Virus record (IMG/VR): IMGVR_UViG_2681813227_000021
Location: 1 to 13,923 of that record
Source: a virus
Taxonomy: Duplodnaviria > Heunggongvirae > Uroviricota > Caudoviricetes
DNA: 13,923 nt
Reading direction: 5' to 3' (one strand)
The first letter of the stretch is position 1. Each line of letters begins with the position of its first letter. A program made the position numbers. Of this stretch, positions 6,001 to 12,000 are shown piece by piece.

Positions 6001-9000
6001 ATGACTGCTAACGTAACCCCATCTGTTTTTCATTTTGAATCAGAAGCAACCATTCGAGCCATTGTTATTGATGGAAATCCTTGGTTTGTTGCCAAAGACG
6101 TTATTAAAGCTCTTCAACTGACAAACCCCACTATGTCAATAAAATCTCTTGATGATGATGAAAGGGCTAAATTTAACTTAGGCCGTCAAGGCGAAACCAA
6201 TATTATCAACGAGTCAGGCCTCTACACACTGATCCTCCGCTGCCGCGATGCGGTGACACCAGGCACTATCCCCTACCGCTTTCGTAAATGGGTTACAGGT
6301 GAGGTTCTTCCTCAGATCCGCCGCACCGGAAGTTACATTAAAAACTCGCTCCCGCAGGAAGAACGCATAAAGATGGTTGCCGACCAGGTAGCCAACGCCA
6401 CAGCATCAGCAGTGATGCAGGCAATGAAGATAGAGAACAAAACCTACAGTGCCCCACTGAAGCCCGGCTACCGCAGCCTGATTCATTCTCCGTCTGGTGT
6501 TCTCGGCCTGACGGAGAACTCACTGCTGATGAATTTGCTGAACCAGTTGCAGGAAGACGGGCACGATGTATCGGGCGCGGCGGCGGAGCTGACCACCATG
6601 TTTTGCTACATCGTTGGTGTGAGCAAATGCCTGCGTGATATCCAGACTCACGCGGAGTACATCAACGACAAGGCTGGGTTCTTCTGACGGGCGGCGGCAC
6701 AGGGATGTGCCTTTAAATAATTCTGTACAGATTGCAGACTGTGGGTGAATAGCGTACTATTACCTCAAGGGTAAACGGATTGGTTTCATTTTTATTAATC
6801 CGTGTAATGAACTTATGAGATATGAGGTAATGTCATGCGAAACGAAAAATTGCAGATGCGTAGAGCGCAAGCTGCCGCAAGACGTTCTTTCAATGGAAGC
6901 GTAGAGTACGTAAAAGTTACTATGACAAAAGATCACGCAAGTCGCGTATCCCGAGCTTTCTTTGATTCTCGTAACAATAAGGAAAATTATGAGTTCGTCT
7001 GCGTCGCAGAATGATAAAAATCAAATTGTCAGATATAAGGGTCGAGTATTGCATACGCAAAATTTCTCGGCCCTTTGTGCATCTGATCTTGAGCTGAAGA
7101 AAGTATCTGATGCCTTTACCCAGTATTGGAAAACGGGATACCATCCATCTCTTGGTAAAGATGCTGCATTTGCTCGTCCGACAGAAATGCTTAAACTAAA
7201 TGTCAGGCATACTCATGTCGATAACCAAGACTATATTCCAGAAGATAGTGATAAAAAACACACTGGTAAAAAATCATCTTGGGATGCATGGAAAAATATA
7301 GCGTCTGTGCAAGTAAAATGCATACCAACAAGTGATTGCTTTTTAGTTTATTCGGTAAATCACAATCGTGATGCGCTGGTTATGTTTTTTGTTGACGCAG
7401 ATGCCCACAACATAACTGAGCAAGAAGAGTTTAAAGAGGAAGCAATCACTATCAGTTATCAATTCTTTGAGAAAACAAAAACAGAACCAATGCCTTTAGA
7501 AGAAGAGCTTTTTTCTGATAAATGGAAGGAATAAGCCCGCGTTGCGGGCTTTTTTGTGTCTGCGGATTCCCGCCCGGGCGGCGGTGGCATTCGTTAAAAA
7601 CAAGGCCGCGAAAGCGGCCTGTGACATGTCACGATAGTTCCGTTTTGCACATCCCTGTGCCGCCGTTCTGTCAGAAGAACCCTGCCTTGTCGTTGATGTA
7701 CTCCGCGTGGGTCTGGATATCACGCAGGCACTTGCTCACACCGACGATGTAGCAGAACATGGTGGTCAGCTCCGCCGCCGCGCCCGATACATCGTGCCCG
7801 TCGTCCTGTAACTGGTTAAGCAGATTCATCAGCAGTGAGTTCTCCGTCAGGCCGAGAACACCAGACGGCGAATGAATCAGACTGCGGTAGCCGGGCTTCA
7901 GCGGATAACCATAACATTTTGTCTGTGTTTTAATTGCCTCACGAAGCGCATCTAACATCTTGACTGCCACTTCATCATTCTCTGATGCAGATCCAGCAGG
8001 GAGATGCTCCCCTTCAAGCGGAACCCGAGCAACAAGAGACAACGCTTCGGCGAATTGATCTTCATCAATTTCTTTGTACGAACAGCCAAAATGAGATTTC
8101 AGTGACGACCACATGGTGATCATCGCCTTAGCCTGTTTTTCTTTTGGCAGAGACTGACCGCGACTCATGACGAGTTGTTTAATGGCTTCCTGCTGTTCAG
8201 TGGTTATTTTACCCGGCAACGCCTTTTTAGCTTTGCGTGGGTTAACCACATGGCCTTTAGTCCAGTACTCGTAGAGAACATCGTCACACTCTTCCTGATA
8301 CTGGATTACCTTGTCGCGGATTTCAGGGCGGACTTTGTTAGGGCTGATGGTTTGCAACCAGCCAGCAAGTTTGCGAAGTGCCAAACAAATAATCTCACGG
8401 CGCTGTTCATCCCCAGGAAGCTGCATTGTGATTTTCACAATGCAGGTTTTAAACCGCTGCTTCATTTTCGTAAACTGTGAAGCCCAATCCATACCCATGC
8501 CTTCAACGATAGGTTTCATTGGGGTGTACGGTTCTCCGTTGTGATTGACAACATAAAGTTCTGCGCCGTGGAATGGCACGTTGATAGTAGATAGCGCTGT
8601 TGCTATACTCGTCATGTCGTTAATTCCTATACGTAGTTTTACGATACTGAAGCCCTGACGGTCTGGCCACCGTTGGGCTTCGCTGTTTTATGCCACGCTA
8701 TTCTTCTCACCAGTGAGTCCATACACTTTCCTCAGCTGATAGATAATCTCTGTATTGAACTTTCGGCATTCTTTTTCGCCATTTCTTTCAATAGCTAACT
8801 TCACATCGTCCGGAAAACGAACTCGTCGTTGACACATCTCTTTTGCTTTTTGCATTTCATATCTCCTTAGCCCCACCGTGGGGCAAAACAATTGTCACAC
8901 CGTGCGTCATTGATGTCAAGCACACGGTGAGGCATACTTCAATCATTGCAAGTAACTCAATATTTGGTGAAGAACATGAGCAGAGAAGATCCACAACTAA

Positions 9001-12000
9001 GGATCAGACTTCCCGTTGAAGTAAAAGAAAAAATAGAAATTTCTGCAAAAGCCAATAAGCGCTCAATGAACGCTGAAATAGTACAACGTCTTGACACCAG
9101 CTTTCTGAAAGATATTCATGAAGATGACGTAATTTCTGCTTATGAAGCAAAAATTATTGCAAACAATGCACGGCATGAAATATCAAATATTATTTTCAAA
9201 AGAACTTTTAATGAAATCAATAAGAAAATAACACTTGGACATACAAGTTTTTATATAAACCTTAATGACCTTGAACTGGAATCACTTGCAGATAATGATT
9301 ACCAGATCATCTTTGAAAAAACATTTAATAAGCTCAATGAACTAGGTTACATCATCTGTGAAAACTCATGGGATGCAGATGGTTTTGGAATTGAAATACC
9401 TGAATAGGAAGAACAAAAGGCGTGTACATATTACACGTCTTTAATACAATTGAAAAACGCCACATTACTGATGTATGTTACAACAAGGAGCGATATTTTG
9501 AAAACCATATCTATATTAAAGGTTGCATTAGGCGTCGCTATTATTTTGACTCTCTCAATATTGTTTTATTTTTACCACAAAAAAACTGCTATTGCTCTTG
9601 ATGGTCACGCGGCAAACTCATTTTTCTCAGAGTACATAGTGCCGCTATCAGGAAGCGGTATAACAAATAAATATACTGACTATGACATCAAATATGGAAT
9701 TGATGATGGGGAGACTATTGCATTACATGTAATCATTAAAAACCTAATGACAGTAAATAAAAATACAGACTTCAACGATAAAAATACAATACATCACAAC
9801 AACAGCAAAACATTAATTTCTTATAGTAGCAACATCTATACGGATAAATACCTAAAATACATCTCAGAAGATACAATAAAAGCAACCAGCGAAAAGTTAA
9901 AAAACATATATTGTGCATCCGGCAGTTTTCACAAATTATCGCCGCAAGAGCGTTTATTCTACGAAGCAAGAAAACAACGTAAGTCAATAATATTACATTA
10001 TTATGCTGATTCAGGAGAGTCACTCATATTTAATATTGGGGTTTCCCCTGAATCATGCTAAAGGCGTTTAACTCACCGCATCACCGGATCCACCTGGTTT
10101 ATTAGTGGCGCAATCCAGAACAGGTTATTGCCTGGTATCAGGGTTCGGACATTATGCACAATACGATCACCGGCATCACCATTCAACACTCCTGCGGTCA
10201 CATCAATGATGCTATCCGCAAGACCAAATGACGGTCCGAATAGAGATCCTACGAATCCACGACTGGCATACCTAGACTGTGTGCCAGTGCCAAATAAAGC
10301 CCCCAGCCCAACAGCACCACCAGTAGCCTTTTCAGCCATGTTGTTATATTCCATCAATGGCCCAAGAATACCGGATCTCTCTATACCCTCAAGCACCAGC
10401 TTCTCTGGTGACCAGTCAACATTTTTCCCTTTCGATGCTTCTTTTAGCGCATAGACCAGTGAGCCAAGAGCAATCTGAAATACAGTGCCATAATAAAATT
10501 GCGCAGTTCCTTCCTGTAACCCACCAAGTAGCGCACGGTTGTATGAAGCCGTTGTGAATGATTTAAACTGAAATATCGTTCGCCCCATTGGAGTACTCGC
10601 CCATAAAGGTGTGTCACCAATACCGGGGGTGATGATAGTGTTATTAACGTCTTTCAGAACCGCTGACTGGAATACTCCGGCAACGTACTGATCGTCCCAT
10701 TTATCAAAGTTACCAATGTGCCATCCATCAATTACCTCACCATGTTTCTCGAACTCACTGCGAATACGCGCAGCCATATTGTCGTTGATACCGAGTTTTG
10801 CCATGCGACGTGCAGAAAACGCACCAGACAAAATACCGTCTGACGTGAGCATTCCGTTCATGGATTTGTTTATGTCATTAAATCGATCCATGAGTGTCAG
10901 CTTGCCGAAGGCATCAGTAATTCGCTCCATTCCTGCTTCGACTGCTGTTGTCCTGGAAGAACTGTCAACAAGATCACCAATTGCACGAGAACGTGAATGT
11001 AGTACAGCTTCCAATCCAATCCCCATCTTCAACATCTCTTCTTTGCTGGCCTTAAATGCCGGTGATTGGGATATCTGAGAAGCATAGCCTTTCATGGTGT
11101 TACGGAAACCATTAACCATAACCCCTCTGGCCAGATCTGGAATAGCTGATACTGTCATTCCACCGAGTTTGGTCGTGAAGTTCACATCCCGCAGAAAAGC
11201 GCCAGCACGAACAAAAAACGAAGACGGATCATCAGGCATACCATATGTACCAACAAGACGATCGCGTAATGCTGTTATGTCTCTGAGATCATTTGCTCTT
11301 GATTTTGAAAGTCTGGACTGTTCTTTCCGTAATTCCTTTTCGTACTTTCGCATTAATGAATCGAGTTTACCCTGAGGAACAACTTCACCATTGCTCTCAT
11401 AACGTGCTTTCAGATTTGCCACACTTTCGTCATATTTCGCCTTTATTTTTTCAGGCACTTCCCGTAACAGACTGTCATATTCGTCCTCAATTAATTGCAG
11501 ACGCTCAGTCATAGTTCGTTTGCCAAATGTTCTCGTCAACTCAATTTCTGCTGCCGCTTCACGGATATGACGTTGCAGCACGTAATTCACATCACTTTCA
11601 AGATAATCCCTGATAAGACTATCAGAAACATTTAATGTTCTTTCTTTCGTACTACCTGCGGCTTTTACAGAAAATACGCTGACAAAATCCTGTGGAACCT
11701 TAGCACCAGTAATTTTATTAATTACGATATCCGCTGCAATTTCAGCATCCTCAGGATCCAGTGTTTTATTTCCTCTCGACCACCAGTCAACCAAAATACG
11801 TCGAAATTTATCGCGTTCACTGATTATTTTTCCAACTTTATATATGCGTGGGAAATAGCTTGCCTGGCCTAATGCTTTCAGTTCTTCATCTGGCGGCAAT
11901 AAACCAAGCTTTTGCATTTCAACTTTCACCCGATTTAATACAGTTCGCATCGCCTGCGCCGTTTCCTGAACAACAGGATTAGCATGCACATCACCGCTTC

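What the first reader, a model, noticed from the sequence alone, without database searches (positions are those of the whole stretch)
8688..9407. P22 immI-like Arc/Mnt/Ant switch with palindromic operator candidates
The gene order (Mnt-like, divergent promoters, Arc-like, Ant-like) reproduces the P22 immunity I architecture, and both RHH proteins align well with Arc and Mnt. The intergenic region carries a perfect palindrome GCCCCAC-C-GTGGGGC (8870-8884) lying between the Arc-like start and the Mnt-like gene. The switch apparently controls only one of the three antirepressor-module genes.
Basis: partly seen in the sequence, partly recalled or inferred. Interest (0 to 1): 0.5.

Follow-up and report, generated by a model that had tools for sequence, protein, structure and literature searches.

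The report
P22-type antirepressor switch, three operators

Summary
The palindrome GCCCCAC-C-GTGGGGC is exactly at 8870-8884, between two divergent ribbon-helix-helix (RHH) genes, so the P22 immI reading is right in kind. The gene assignment is mirrored. The Arc counterpart is the 55-aa gene 8855..8688 (-). An Rfam sar antisense RNA (8617-8684, +) sits between them. The Mnt counterpart is the whole 143-aa gene 8976-9407 (+), and no Ant-like gene lies inside it.

The palindrome is one of three related 17-bp sites (TGyCnCAC-S-GTGnGrCA), centred at 8877, 8901 and 8926:
- O1 lies at about +1 to +15 of the arc-ant promoter, where P22 Omnt lies.
- O2 lies in that promoter's spacer, where P22 Oarc lies.
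- O3 lies in the spacer of the mnt-like promoter.

The two promoters stand back-to-back with overlapping -35 boxes. This layout is conserved in 16 enterobacterial loci (93% identity against 43% in the adjacent untranslated region). The sites track the Mnt-type recognition strand across distant bacteria. Which sites the Arc-like protein uses is unresolved. I rate it a new variant of a known system, of moderate interest.

The parts
8976..9407 (+). mnt-like gene (143 aa): RHH domain, long helix (residues 55-86, aligned with the P22 Mnt C-terminal region) and an extra alpha/beta domain (about residues 90-140)
   Evidence: ORF. Pfam Arc PF03869 at 1.1e-14. 32% identity to P22 Mnt over 88 aa. PHROG 1388 full length and PHROG 795, the Mnt family. 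AF2 pLDDT 82. N-terminus MSREDPQLRIRLP invariant in 26 homologues.
8910..8938 (+). Inferred mnt-like promoter: -35 TTGATG 8910-8915, 17-bp spacer containing O3, -10 CATACT 8933-8938 (CATAAT in relatives)
   Evidence: Read from the sequence. It scores 8/12, below the scan threshold. The -10 is 98% and the -35 region 94% conserved across 16 loci. Inferred, not mapped.
8918..8934 (.). O3 operator AAGCACAC-G-GTGAGGCA, centre 8926, inside the mnt-like promoter spacer. It is the perfect palindrome CCCCAC-S-GTGGGG in most relatives.
   Evidence: The O2-O3 spacing is 25 bp in all 16 loci.
8893..8909 (.). O2 operator TGTCACAC-C-GTGCGTCA, centre 8901, in the spacer and overlapping the -10 of the arc-ant promoter. 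Position-equivalent to P22 Oarc.
   Evidence: 96% column conservation. P22 feature positions.
8869..8885 (.). It lies 14 nt downstream of the -10 and 22 nt before the arc-like ATG. Position-equivalent to P22 Omnt (15 and 25 nt).
8891..8919 (-). arc-ant promoter (Pant-like): -35 TTGACA 8919-8914, 17-bp spacer, extended -10 TGtGACAAT ending at 8891
   Evidence: Promoter scan 10/12 with TG. Conserved in relatives. The same scan recovers the annotated P22 Pant and Pmnt.
8688..8855 (-). arc-like gene (55 aa RHH), first gene of the arc-ant operon, preceded by Shine-Dalgarno AAGGAG at 8862-8867
   Evidence: BLASTP to P22 Arc at 33% and 4e-5. PHROG 228 'Arc-like repressor' at 3e-5. hhalign to the Mnt-like family at 84% probability, E 8e-6. 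RefSeq names the TL-2011b orthologue 'Arc-like repressor'. No Pfam hit.
8581..8609 (+). sar promoter-like site, TTGATA-17-TATACT with TG, inside the 5' end of ant on the opposite strand
   Evidence: Promoter scan 10/12. Same relative position as the annotated P22 sar promoter.
8617..8689 (+). sar antisense RNA, complementary to the ant ribosome-binding region, ending in a terminator hairpin (8660-8679) plus a T-run in the arc-ant spacer
   Evidence: Rfam RF00262 at 45.2 bits, above the gathering score of 43. Terminator scan. Fold -23.1 kcal/mol, z -2.7. Weaker hits at the same position in L034 and L037.
7671..8615 (-). ant, a P22-type antirepressor (314 aa) and the gene controlled by the switch
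   Evidence: Pfam P22_AR_N at 1e-44. 39% identity to P22 Ant.
7603..7620 (-). Intrinsic terminator-like hairpin about 50 nt after the ant stop, closing the arc-ant operon
   Evidence: Terminator scan.

Best explanation
The region is a P22 immunity-I-type secondary immunity switch carried by an epsilon15/TL-2011b-like (Uetakevirus-type) E. coli prophage. It occupies the 'ant moron' position between the ejection-protein genes and the tailspike gene.

Anatomy (shown):
- On the + strand is a long Mnt-type RHH repressor gene (8976-9407).
- On the - strand is an operon of arc-like (8855-8688) and ant (8615-7671).
- A sar antisense RNA (8617-8684, +) lies over the ant ribosome-binding site.
- A terminator follows ant.
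- The 120-bp control region holds two back-to-back promoters whose -35 boxes overlap (TTGATGTCAA).
- It also holds three related 17-bp palindromic operators, 24 and 25 bp apart.

Mechanism (inferred):
- In the lysogen, the Mnt-like protein is made from its own promoter. It is probably a tetramer through the Mnt-like helix.
- It binds O1 (perfect in this phage, over the transcription start) and O2 (in the promoter spacer). This shuts the arc-ant promoter, so no antirepressor is made.
- At higher concentration it fills O3, inside its own promoter spacer, and limits its own synthesis.
- On entry into a cell without Mnt, the strong arc-ant promoter fires.
- Ant inactivates resident repressors, sar limits ant translation, and the Arc-like protein feeds back on the same operator block. 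O2, the P22 Oarc position, is the prime candidate.

The difference from P22 has a structural logic. In P22 the two promoters occupy the same 29 bp, so one Arc site covers both. Here they are side by side, so each spacer carries its own site.
For: Homology of every part to P22 immI:
- Mnt, Arc, Ant, sar.
- Feature positions in the annotated P22 record.
- O1 sits 14 nt after the -10 and 22 nt before the arc ATG, against 15 and 25 nt for P22 Omnt.
- O1 shares the CAC-S-GTG core with P22 Omnt (AGGTCCAC-G-GTGGACCT).

Clustering:
- All three CACSGTG heptamers of the window lie within 56 bp.

Conservation:
- In 16 loci from Kluyvera, Yersinia, Citrobacter, Proteus, Morganella, Xenorhabdus, Pantoea and others, the proteins are 52-76% identical.
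- The O2-to-(-10) block is 93% identical pairwise, against 43% in the neighbouring 5'UTR.
- The O2-O3 spacing is invariably 25 bp.
- Half-site positions -5, -3 and -2 are invariant in 96 of 96 half-sites.

The sites follow the Mnt-type strand, not the partner gene:
- Proteins with N-terminus MSREDPQL[RK][IV]R but unrelated C-termini and partners keep 2-3 such sites. These come from Acinetobacter, Comamonadaceae, Rhizobium, Xenorhabdus and Serratia.
- Loci whose strand is QFVVR or KFLVR have none.
- Strand residue 8 covaries with operator position -5: R goes with C in 133 of 138 half-sites, K with A in 24 of 24, and P22 has N with T.

Other:
- The cargo after arc-like varies (P22_AR_N, Bro-N and KilA-N-like antirepressors), as expected for a portable switch.
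Against: - No binding or transcription data exist. The promoters and start sites are consensus matches plus conservation only, and the mnt-like promoter scores just 8/12 in this phage.
- The Arc-like protein has no Pfam hit and only weak profile matches to solved Arc structures (E 0.07-0.14). Its single-sequence AF2 model is poor (pLDDT 60).
- Its operator is not identified. Its strand residue 11 varies between R and K with no matching change in the sites.
- In most relatives the perfect palindrome is O3, in the mnt-like promoter, not O1. The order of site occupancy may therefore differ from my model, or between phages.
- The intergenic DNA cannot be aligned with that of P22. The resemblance is architectural.
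Confidence: 0.8

Rival explanations
1. Division of labour as in P22. The Mnt-like protein binds only the GCCCCAC-type sites (O1 and O3). The Arc-like protein binds the GTCACAC/GACGCAC-type site O2 in the arc-ant promoter spacer. The three sites would then be two operator classes that merely share a core.
For: - O2 is position-equivalent to P22 Oarc.
- Its non-consensus half-sites are almost invariant.
- A perfect palindrome of the GTCACAC class exists as O1 in the Mixta locus L037. That class is therefore a genuine high-affinity site for some protein.
Against: - Loci with a non-RHH partner gene (Xenorhabdus and Serratia: L039, L042, L043, L046, L048) still have three sites with uniform half-sites.
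- O1 can be either class or a hybrid, and O2 is GCCTCAC-type in L026.
- The T at -6 of the O2 left half is forced by the overlapping -10 hexamer.
Confidence: 0.25
2. One reading: 8688-8855 is the Mnt-like maintenance repressor, and the + strand carries Arc-like followed by an Ant-like gene.
For: The RHH domain of the + strand protein is 44% identical to P22 Arc.
Against: - sar and the P22_AR_N ant gene lie downstream of the 55-aa gene on the - strand.
- The + strand ORF is one 143-aa protein that aligns with Mnt through its C-terminal helix.
- The next + strand gene (9450-10061) is a membrane protein with no antirepressor domain.
Confidence: 0.02
3. The palindrome acts as an RNA hairpin rather than a protein-binding site. 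It would stabilise the 5' end of the arc-ant mRNA or act as a terminator.
For: On the - strand the first roughly 15 nt of the predicted mRNA can form a 6-bp GC stem with a 3-nt loop (-12.3 kcal/mol, z -2.0).
Against: - No T-run follows on either strand.
- The stem does not cover the Shine-Dalgarno sequence.
- The same motif recurs at O2 and O3, which lie in promoter spacers.
- In relatives O1 is often imperfect, while the symmetric positions -5, -3, -2 and -1 stay fixed. That pattern fits dimeric protein readout.
Confidence: 0.04
4. The two RHH genes belong to a toxin-antitoxin or partition cassette unrelated to antirepressor control. PHROG labels the Mnt families 'partition protein ATPase'.
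For: PHROG 795 and 2685 descriptions. A YafO-like toxin gene lies nearby at 6962-7534.
Against: - The same odd label is attached to the P22 mnt gene itself in RefSeq, so it is an annotation artefact.
- No toxin or ParA gene is adjacent.
- In the 16 loci holding the Arc-like/Mnt-like pair, the gene after arc-like matches or resembles an antirepressor (P22-type Ant, Bro-N, or KilA-N-like by eye) wherever I could classify it.
Confidence: 0.02

Closest known systems
Phage P22 immunity I region (mnt, Pmnt/Pant, Oarc, Omnt, arc, sar, ant)
   Same: - Same gene set and order: mnt divergent from arc-sar-ant.
- RHH repressors homologous to Mnt and Arc.
- P22_AR_N antirepressor.
- sar antisense RNA abutting the ant start codon, with its terminator at the arc stop.
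- A palindromic CAC-S-GTG operator just downstream of the Pant -10.
- A terminator after ant.
- Location between the ejection-protein and tailspike genes (PMC2629481; PMC11016777).
   Different: - Three sequence-related operators, instead of one Omnt plus one unrelated TAGA-box Oarc. No TAGA-type operator is present in the control region.
- The promoters stand back-to-back with overlapping -35 boxes, instead of occupying the same 29 bp.
- The Mnt counterpart has about 57 extra C-terminal residues forming a confident small alpha/beta domain.
- The recognition strand is Q-R-R instead of H-N-R (Mnt) or Q-N-R (Arc).
- The host phage is epsilon15-like, not P22-like.
'ant morons' of P22-like phages (epsilon34, ST64T, CUS-3, HK620 and others; PMC2629481)
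   Same: A variable, independently expressed insert at the same place in the late operon. It often carries mnt, arc and ant in various states of completeness.
   Different: Those were described in P22-like genomes and by gene content only. Here the cassette is in a Uetakevirus-type prophage. It also recurs in many Enterobacterales with interchangeable antirepressor cargo.
Lambda OR (three operators shared by CI and Cro between divergent PRM and PR). Analogy only.
   Same: Three related palindromic 17-bp sites lie between divergent promoters. Occupancy of one site can repress one promoter while sitting at about -42 to -44 of the other. O2 is centred at about -44 of the mnt-like start, and O3 at about -42 of the arc-ant start.
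   Different: The proteins are unrelated (RHH rather than helix-turn-helix). Sharing of the sites by the two repressors is not shown here. This switch controls an antirepressor, not the main lysis-lysogeny decision.

Membership tests
P22 immI-type immunity region | mnt-type repressor gene transcribed divergently from an arc-ant operon | tested here: met
ORFs and orientation. Homology to P22 Mnt, Arc and Ant.
P22 immI-type immunity region | Mnt homologue: N-terminal RHH plus C-terminal helical oligomerisation region | tested here: met
   BLASTP at 32% over 88 aa reaching the end of Mnt. Pfam Arc at 1e-14. Profile hit to PDB 1mnt at 2e-7. AF2 helix at residues 55-86. An extra domain is present. 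The oligomeric state was not tested.
P22 immI-type immunity region | Small Arc-type RHH repressor as the first gene of the ant operon | tested here: met
   The position is met. For sequence: BLASTP to Arc at 4e-5, PHROG 228 at 3e-5, hhalign to the Mnt-like family at 84%. Weak points: no Pfam hit, PDB Arc at E 0.07-0.14, and an uninformative AF2 single-sequence model.
P22 immI-type immunity region | sar antisense RNA opposite the ant ribosome-binding site | tested here: met
   Rfam RF00262 at 45.2 bits, above the gathering score of 43, at 8617-8684. Promoter and terminator are in the P22-equivalent places.
P22 immI-type immunity region | Antirepressor with P22_AR_N domain | tested here: met
   Pfam PF10547 at 1e-44. 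39% identity to P22 Ant.
P22 immI-type immunity region | Palindromic Mnt operator over the Pant start region | tested here: met
   The O1 centre is 14 nt after the -10, against 15 nt in P22, and it shares the CAC-S-GTG core. Binding itself was not tested.
P22 immI-type immunity region | A distinct 21-bp Arc operator with TAGA boxes between the -35 and -10 of Pant | tested here: not met
   No TAGA-box sequence is in the control region. The equivalent position holds O2, which is related to O1 and O3.
P22 immI-type immunity region | Pant and Pmnt fully overlapping on opposite strands | tested here: not met
   In P22 the two occupy 14793-14821 and 14826-14798. Here only the -35 boxes overlap (8910-8919) and the -10 boxes are 37-47 bp apart.
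P22 immI-type immunity region | Mnt represses Pant, Arc represses both promoters, and Ant inactivates the prophage repressor | not testable with these tools
   Needs EMSA or footprinting, reporter fusions and induction assays.
Ribbon-helix-helix Arc/Mnt family (Pfam PF03869) | Score above the Pfam gathering threshold | tested here: met
   Mnt-like protein scores 54.5 bits against a cut-off of 20.4. The Arc-like 55-aa protein does not reach it.

The most novel reading that the evidence does not exclude
The cassette is a lambda-OR-like bistable switch built from two paralogous RHH repressors. Both carry a Q-(R/K)-R recognition strand and compete for the same three operators with opposite orders of preference across back-to-back promoters. 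The extra C-terminal domain of the long Mnt acts as a sensor or partner-binding module. The whole unit is a portable gate that enterobacterial prophages place in front of interchangeable antirepressors. A by-product would be a simple readable recognition code: strand residue 8 reads operator position -5, with R for C:G, K for A:T and N for T:A.
Probability: 0.25. Interest if true: 0.55.

Novelty: new variant of a known kind. Interest (0 to 1): 0.38.

Why it matters
P22 immI is a textbook system for RHH-DNA recognition and antisense control, but it has been studied in essentially one phage.

This window shows that a structurally different version is widespread in Enterobacterales prophages. It has three related operators, side-by-side promoters and a long Mnt with an added domain, and it sits in front of several kinds of antirepressor. 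It is present in 36 of 5426 complete E. coli genomes, with 262 homologues of the long Mnt.

It offers a natural data set for RHH recognition rules, through the covariation of strand residue 8 with operator position -5.

It also shows how one prophage can keep three antirepressor genes under three separate inputs: Mnt/Arc/sar, LexA, and C4/isrK RNAs. That bears on prophage cross-talk and induction in pathogenic E. coli.

The finding also corrects database annotation:
- The Mnt counterpart is labelled only 'Arc family DNA-binding protein'.
- The Arc counterpart is labelled 'hypothetical protein'.
- In the TL-2011b record the gene is truncated.

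Tried and rejected
- Pfam on the 55-aa protein gave no hit.
- Profile search of the Arc-like family against PDB sequences gave only weak Arc matches, ranked below designed proteins.
The single-sequence model was poor (pLDDT 60) and was not used.
- MAFFT alignment of the P22 and window control regions is not meaningful.
- Rfam at gathering threshold found no sar in 20 relatives. A permissive search found sub-threshold sar hits at the right place only in L034 and L037.
- A LexA-box search found none near the switch, so SOS control of this ant gene was rejected.
- A P22 Oarc-like 15-mer found at 5704-5718 is within chance expectation.
- Knight and Sauer 1989 could not be read. 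Statements on Arc and Mnt contact residues (Arc Q9/N11/R13; Mnt R2/H6/N8/R10) rest on my own knowledge of that literature.
- Literature searches found no description of this three-operator layout. Most subscription-journal papers are not searchable, so prior description cannot be excluded.

Full report
**What is in the sequence**

The window is 96.6% identical over the tested 2.5 kb to Escherichia phage TL-2011b, an epsilon15/phiV10-like podovirus. On the - strand it carries late genes: a 1004-aa virion protein, a tailspike, holins, an endolysin and a spanin. Between them lies an insert of regulatory genes.

It is the only 7-1-7 palindrome in the window. One such palindrome is what chance gives in 13.9 kb (simulations mean 1.0), so the palindrome by itself proves nothing.

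**Gene identities and orientation**

- The 143-aa ORF 8976-9407 (+) has the Pfam Arc domain (1.1e-14).
- It aligns with P22 Mnt over 88 residues to the very end of Mnt (32% identity, 3e-14).
- Its N-terminus MSREDPQLRIRLP parallels Mnt MARDDPHFNFRMP.
- The 55-aa ORF 8855..8688 (-) matches P22 Arc best (33% identity, 4e-5; against Mnt, 0.003).
- It also matches PHROG 228 'Arc-like repressor', and aligns with the Mnt-like family by hhalign (84% probability).
- It has no Pfam hit.
- Downstream on the same strand is a 314-aa protein with the P22_AR_N domain (1e-44), 39% identical to P22 Ant.
- Between the two genes, on the opposite strand, Rfam finds sar RNA above its gathering score (8617-8684, 45.2 bits against 43).
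- A promoter-like site lies inside the 5' end of ant, and a terminator lies at the arc stop. Both positions match the annotated P22 record.
- A terminator-like hairpin follows ant (7603-7620).

The module is therefore mnt (+) / arc-sar-ant (-). The error is understandable, because the RHH domain of the long protein is 44% identical to Arc.

**The control region**

- All three CACSGTG heptamers of the whole window lie at 8874-8880, 8898-8904 and 8923-8929. They are spaced 24 and 25 bp apart.
- Each is the core of a 17-bp imperfect palindrome, and a consensus search finds only these three.
- A sigma-70-type promoter on the - strand has O2 in its spacer and O1 starting about 7 nt after the -10. 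It reads TTGACA 8919-8914, 17 bp, TGtGACAAT ending at 8891.
- The O1 centre is 14 nt from the -10 and 22 nt from the arc-like ATG. In P22, Omnt (AGGTCCAC-G-GTGGACCT) is 15 and 25 nt from the same landmarks, and Oarc fills the Pant spacer.
- On the + strand I infer TTGATG (8910-8915), 17 bp, CATACT (8933-8938), with O3 in the spacer.
- The two -35 boxes overlap by two bases.
- In P22 the two promoters instead occupy the same 29 bp on opposite strands.

**Comparative evidence**

- The long Mnt-type protein has 262 homologues, mostly 142-152 aa and 58-69% identical, across Enterobacterales. They are named only 'Arc family DNA-binding protein'.
- The N-terminal 13 residues are invariant or nearly so in the 26 homologues aligned.
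- In 16 loci from different genera, the Arc-like gene is always the divergent partner.
- All of these loci show the same O1/O2/O3 layout.
- The O2-to-(-10) block is 93% identical pairwise, against 43% for the adjacent 5'UTR. The proteins themselves are only 52-76% identical.
- The O2-O3 spacing is 25 bp in every locus, and O1-O2 is 24-27 bp.
- Ninety-six half-sites give T G y C n C A C. C(-5), C(-3) and A(-2) are invariant.
- In most relatives the perfect palindrome is O3. In this phage it is O1.
- The cargo behind arc-like varies: P22-type Ant, Bro-N and KilA-N-like proteins. The cassette therefore behaves as a portable gate for antirepressors.

**Which protein reads the sites**

- Proteins that share only the MSREDPQL[RK][IV]R strand still have two or three CAC-S-GTG sites upstream. 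Their C-termini and partner genes are unrelated, and they come from Acinetobacter, Giesbergeria, Pseudorhodoferax, Rhizobium, Xenorhabdus and Serratia.
- Two loci with a different strand (QFVVR, KFLVR) have none.
- Strand residue 8 covaries with operator position -5. Arginine goes with C in 133 of 138 half-sites and lysine with A in 24 of 24. P22 Mnt has Asn8 and T at -5.
- This is good indirect evidence that the Mnt-type RHH domain reads all three sites.
- The Arc-like protein has Q9, R/K11 and R13, aligned with Q, R, R of the Mnt-like strand.
- Its R/K variation is not matched by any change in the sites, so its target is unresolved.
- The only conserved non-coding DNA is the operator-promoter block. 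Its site must therefore overlap that block, and O2 is the positional candidate.

**Structure**

**Mechanism, with status**

- Shown: the parts, their order, their homology to P22 immI, the three clustered and conserved sites, and the covariation with the Mnt-type strand.
- Inferred: Mnt-like protein represses the arc-ant promoter through O1 and O2 and autoregulates through O3.
- Inferred: Arc-like protein feeds back on the block after infection, sar limits ant translation, and Ant inactivates repressors.
- These inferences follow P22 (summarised in PMC11016777; moron context in PMC2629481).
- Because the promoters are side by side, a third operator is needed to cover the mnt-like promoter. That is a rational reason for the difference from P22.

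**Rivals**

- A P22-like split (Mnt-like on O1 and O3, Arc-like on O2) remains possible (0.25).
- An RNA-hairpin role for the palindrome is possible only as a side effect.
- The 'partition protein ATPase' labels in PHROG and in the P22 RefSeq record are annotation artefacts.

**Novelty and score**

The kind of system is textbook, and RefSeq already names 'Arc-like repressor' and 'anti-repressor Ant' in TL-2011b. I found no description of the following in the searchable literature:
- the three-operator, back-to-back-promoter layout;
- the long Mnt with an extra domain;
- the spread of the cassette with exchangeable cargo.

I rate it a new variant of a known kind, with interest 0.38.

Noticed in passing
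window 5393-5408 and 5430-5687 (+): A perfect LexA box, CTGTATATTTATACAG, sits just upstream of an 85-aa ORF. The ORF's C-terminal half resembles the C-termini of the two large antirepressors (PHROG 450, and a weak hit to the anti-repressor PHROG 1760). It looks like a small SOS-controlled antirepressor, a separate input from the Mnt/Arc switch.
   Followed up: partly
window 5770-5846, 5866-5952 and 5848-6687 (+): Rfam isrK (74 bits) and C4 antisense RNA (79.5 bits) lie immediately before and over the start of a Bro-N antirepressor gene. This is a second, RNA-controlled antirepressor module of the P1 c4/ant or Gifsy isrK type.
   Followed up: partly
window 6419-6688 and 7670-7939: A 270-nt inverted repeat, 90% complementary. 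It encodes the nearly identical C-terminal 90 residues of the Bro-N antirepressor and the P22-type Ant, which are convergent. The repeat flanks a YafO-like toxin gene (6962-7534). It points to domain shuffling between antirepressors and is a possible inversion substrate.
   Followed up: partly
L001 (TL-2011b), equivalent to window about 9001: The published TL-2011b genome has one extra G (AAGG to AGGG) that frameshifts the mnt-like gene after about codon 9. RefSeq therefore annotates only a 113-aa internal ORF as 'hypothetical protein'. Sixteen other viral contigs encode the intact 143-aa protein. The extra G is either a real inactivating mutation or a homopolymer sequencing error.
   Followed up: partly
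window 5704-5718 (-): A 15-mer identical at 13 of 15 positions to the core of the P22 Arc operator lies in the spacer and -10 of a promoter-like site (5691-5719, +) that points at isrK. It is within chance expectation (0.33 per window), and both TAGA boxes are imperfect.
   Followed up: no
window 9450-10061 (+): A 203-aa predicted membrane protein (PHROG 8033, unknown function) occupies the place that sieA holds next to mnt in P22. It has no detectable similarity to P22 SieA (E 0.15). It may be an analogous exclusion gene.
   Followed up: partly
window 3240-5234 (-): The tailspike carries a GDSL/SGNH esterase domain (Pfam 7e-15) behind a T7-tail-like N-terminal adaptor. This suggests an O-antigen deacetylase-type receptor-destroying enzyme.
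   Followed up: no
L039, L042, L043, L046, L048 (Xenorhabdus, Serratia): Here the same Mnt-type N-terminal RHH and three-site layout are joined to a different, roughly 60-residue acidic C-terminus. The divergent partner is a 57-70-aa non-RHH protein, and a second Mnt-like RHH gene lies convergent about 350 bp downstream. This appears to be another variant of the switch.
   Followed up: no
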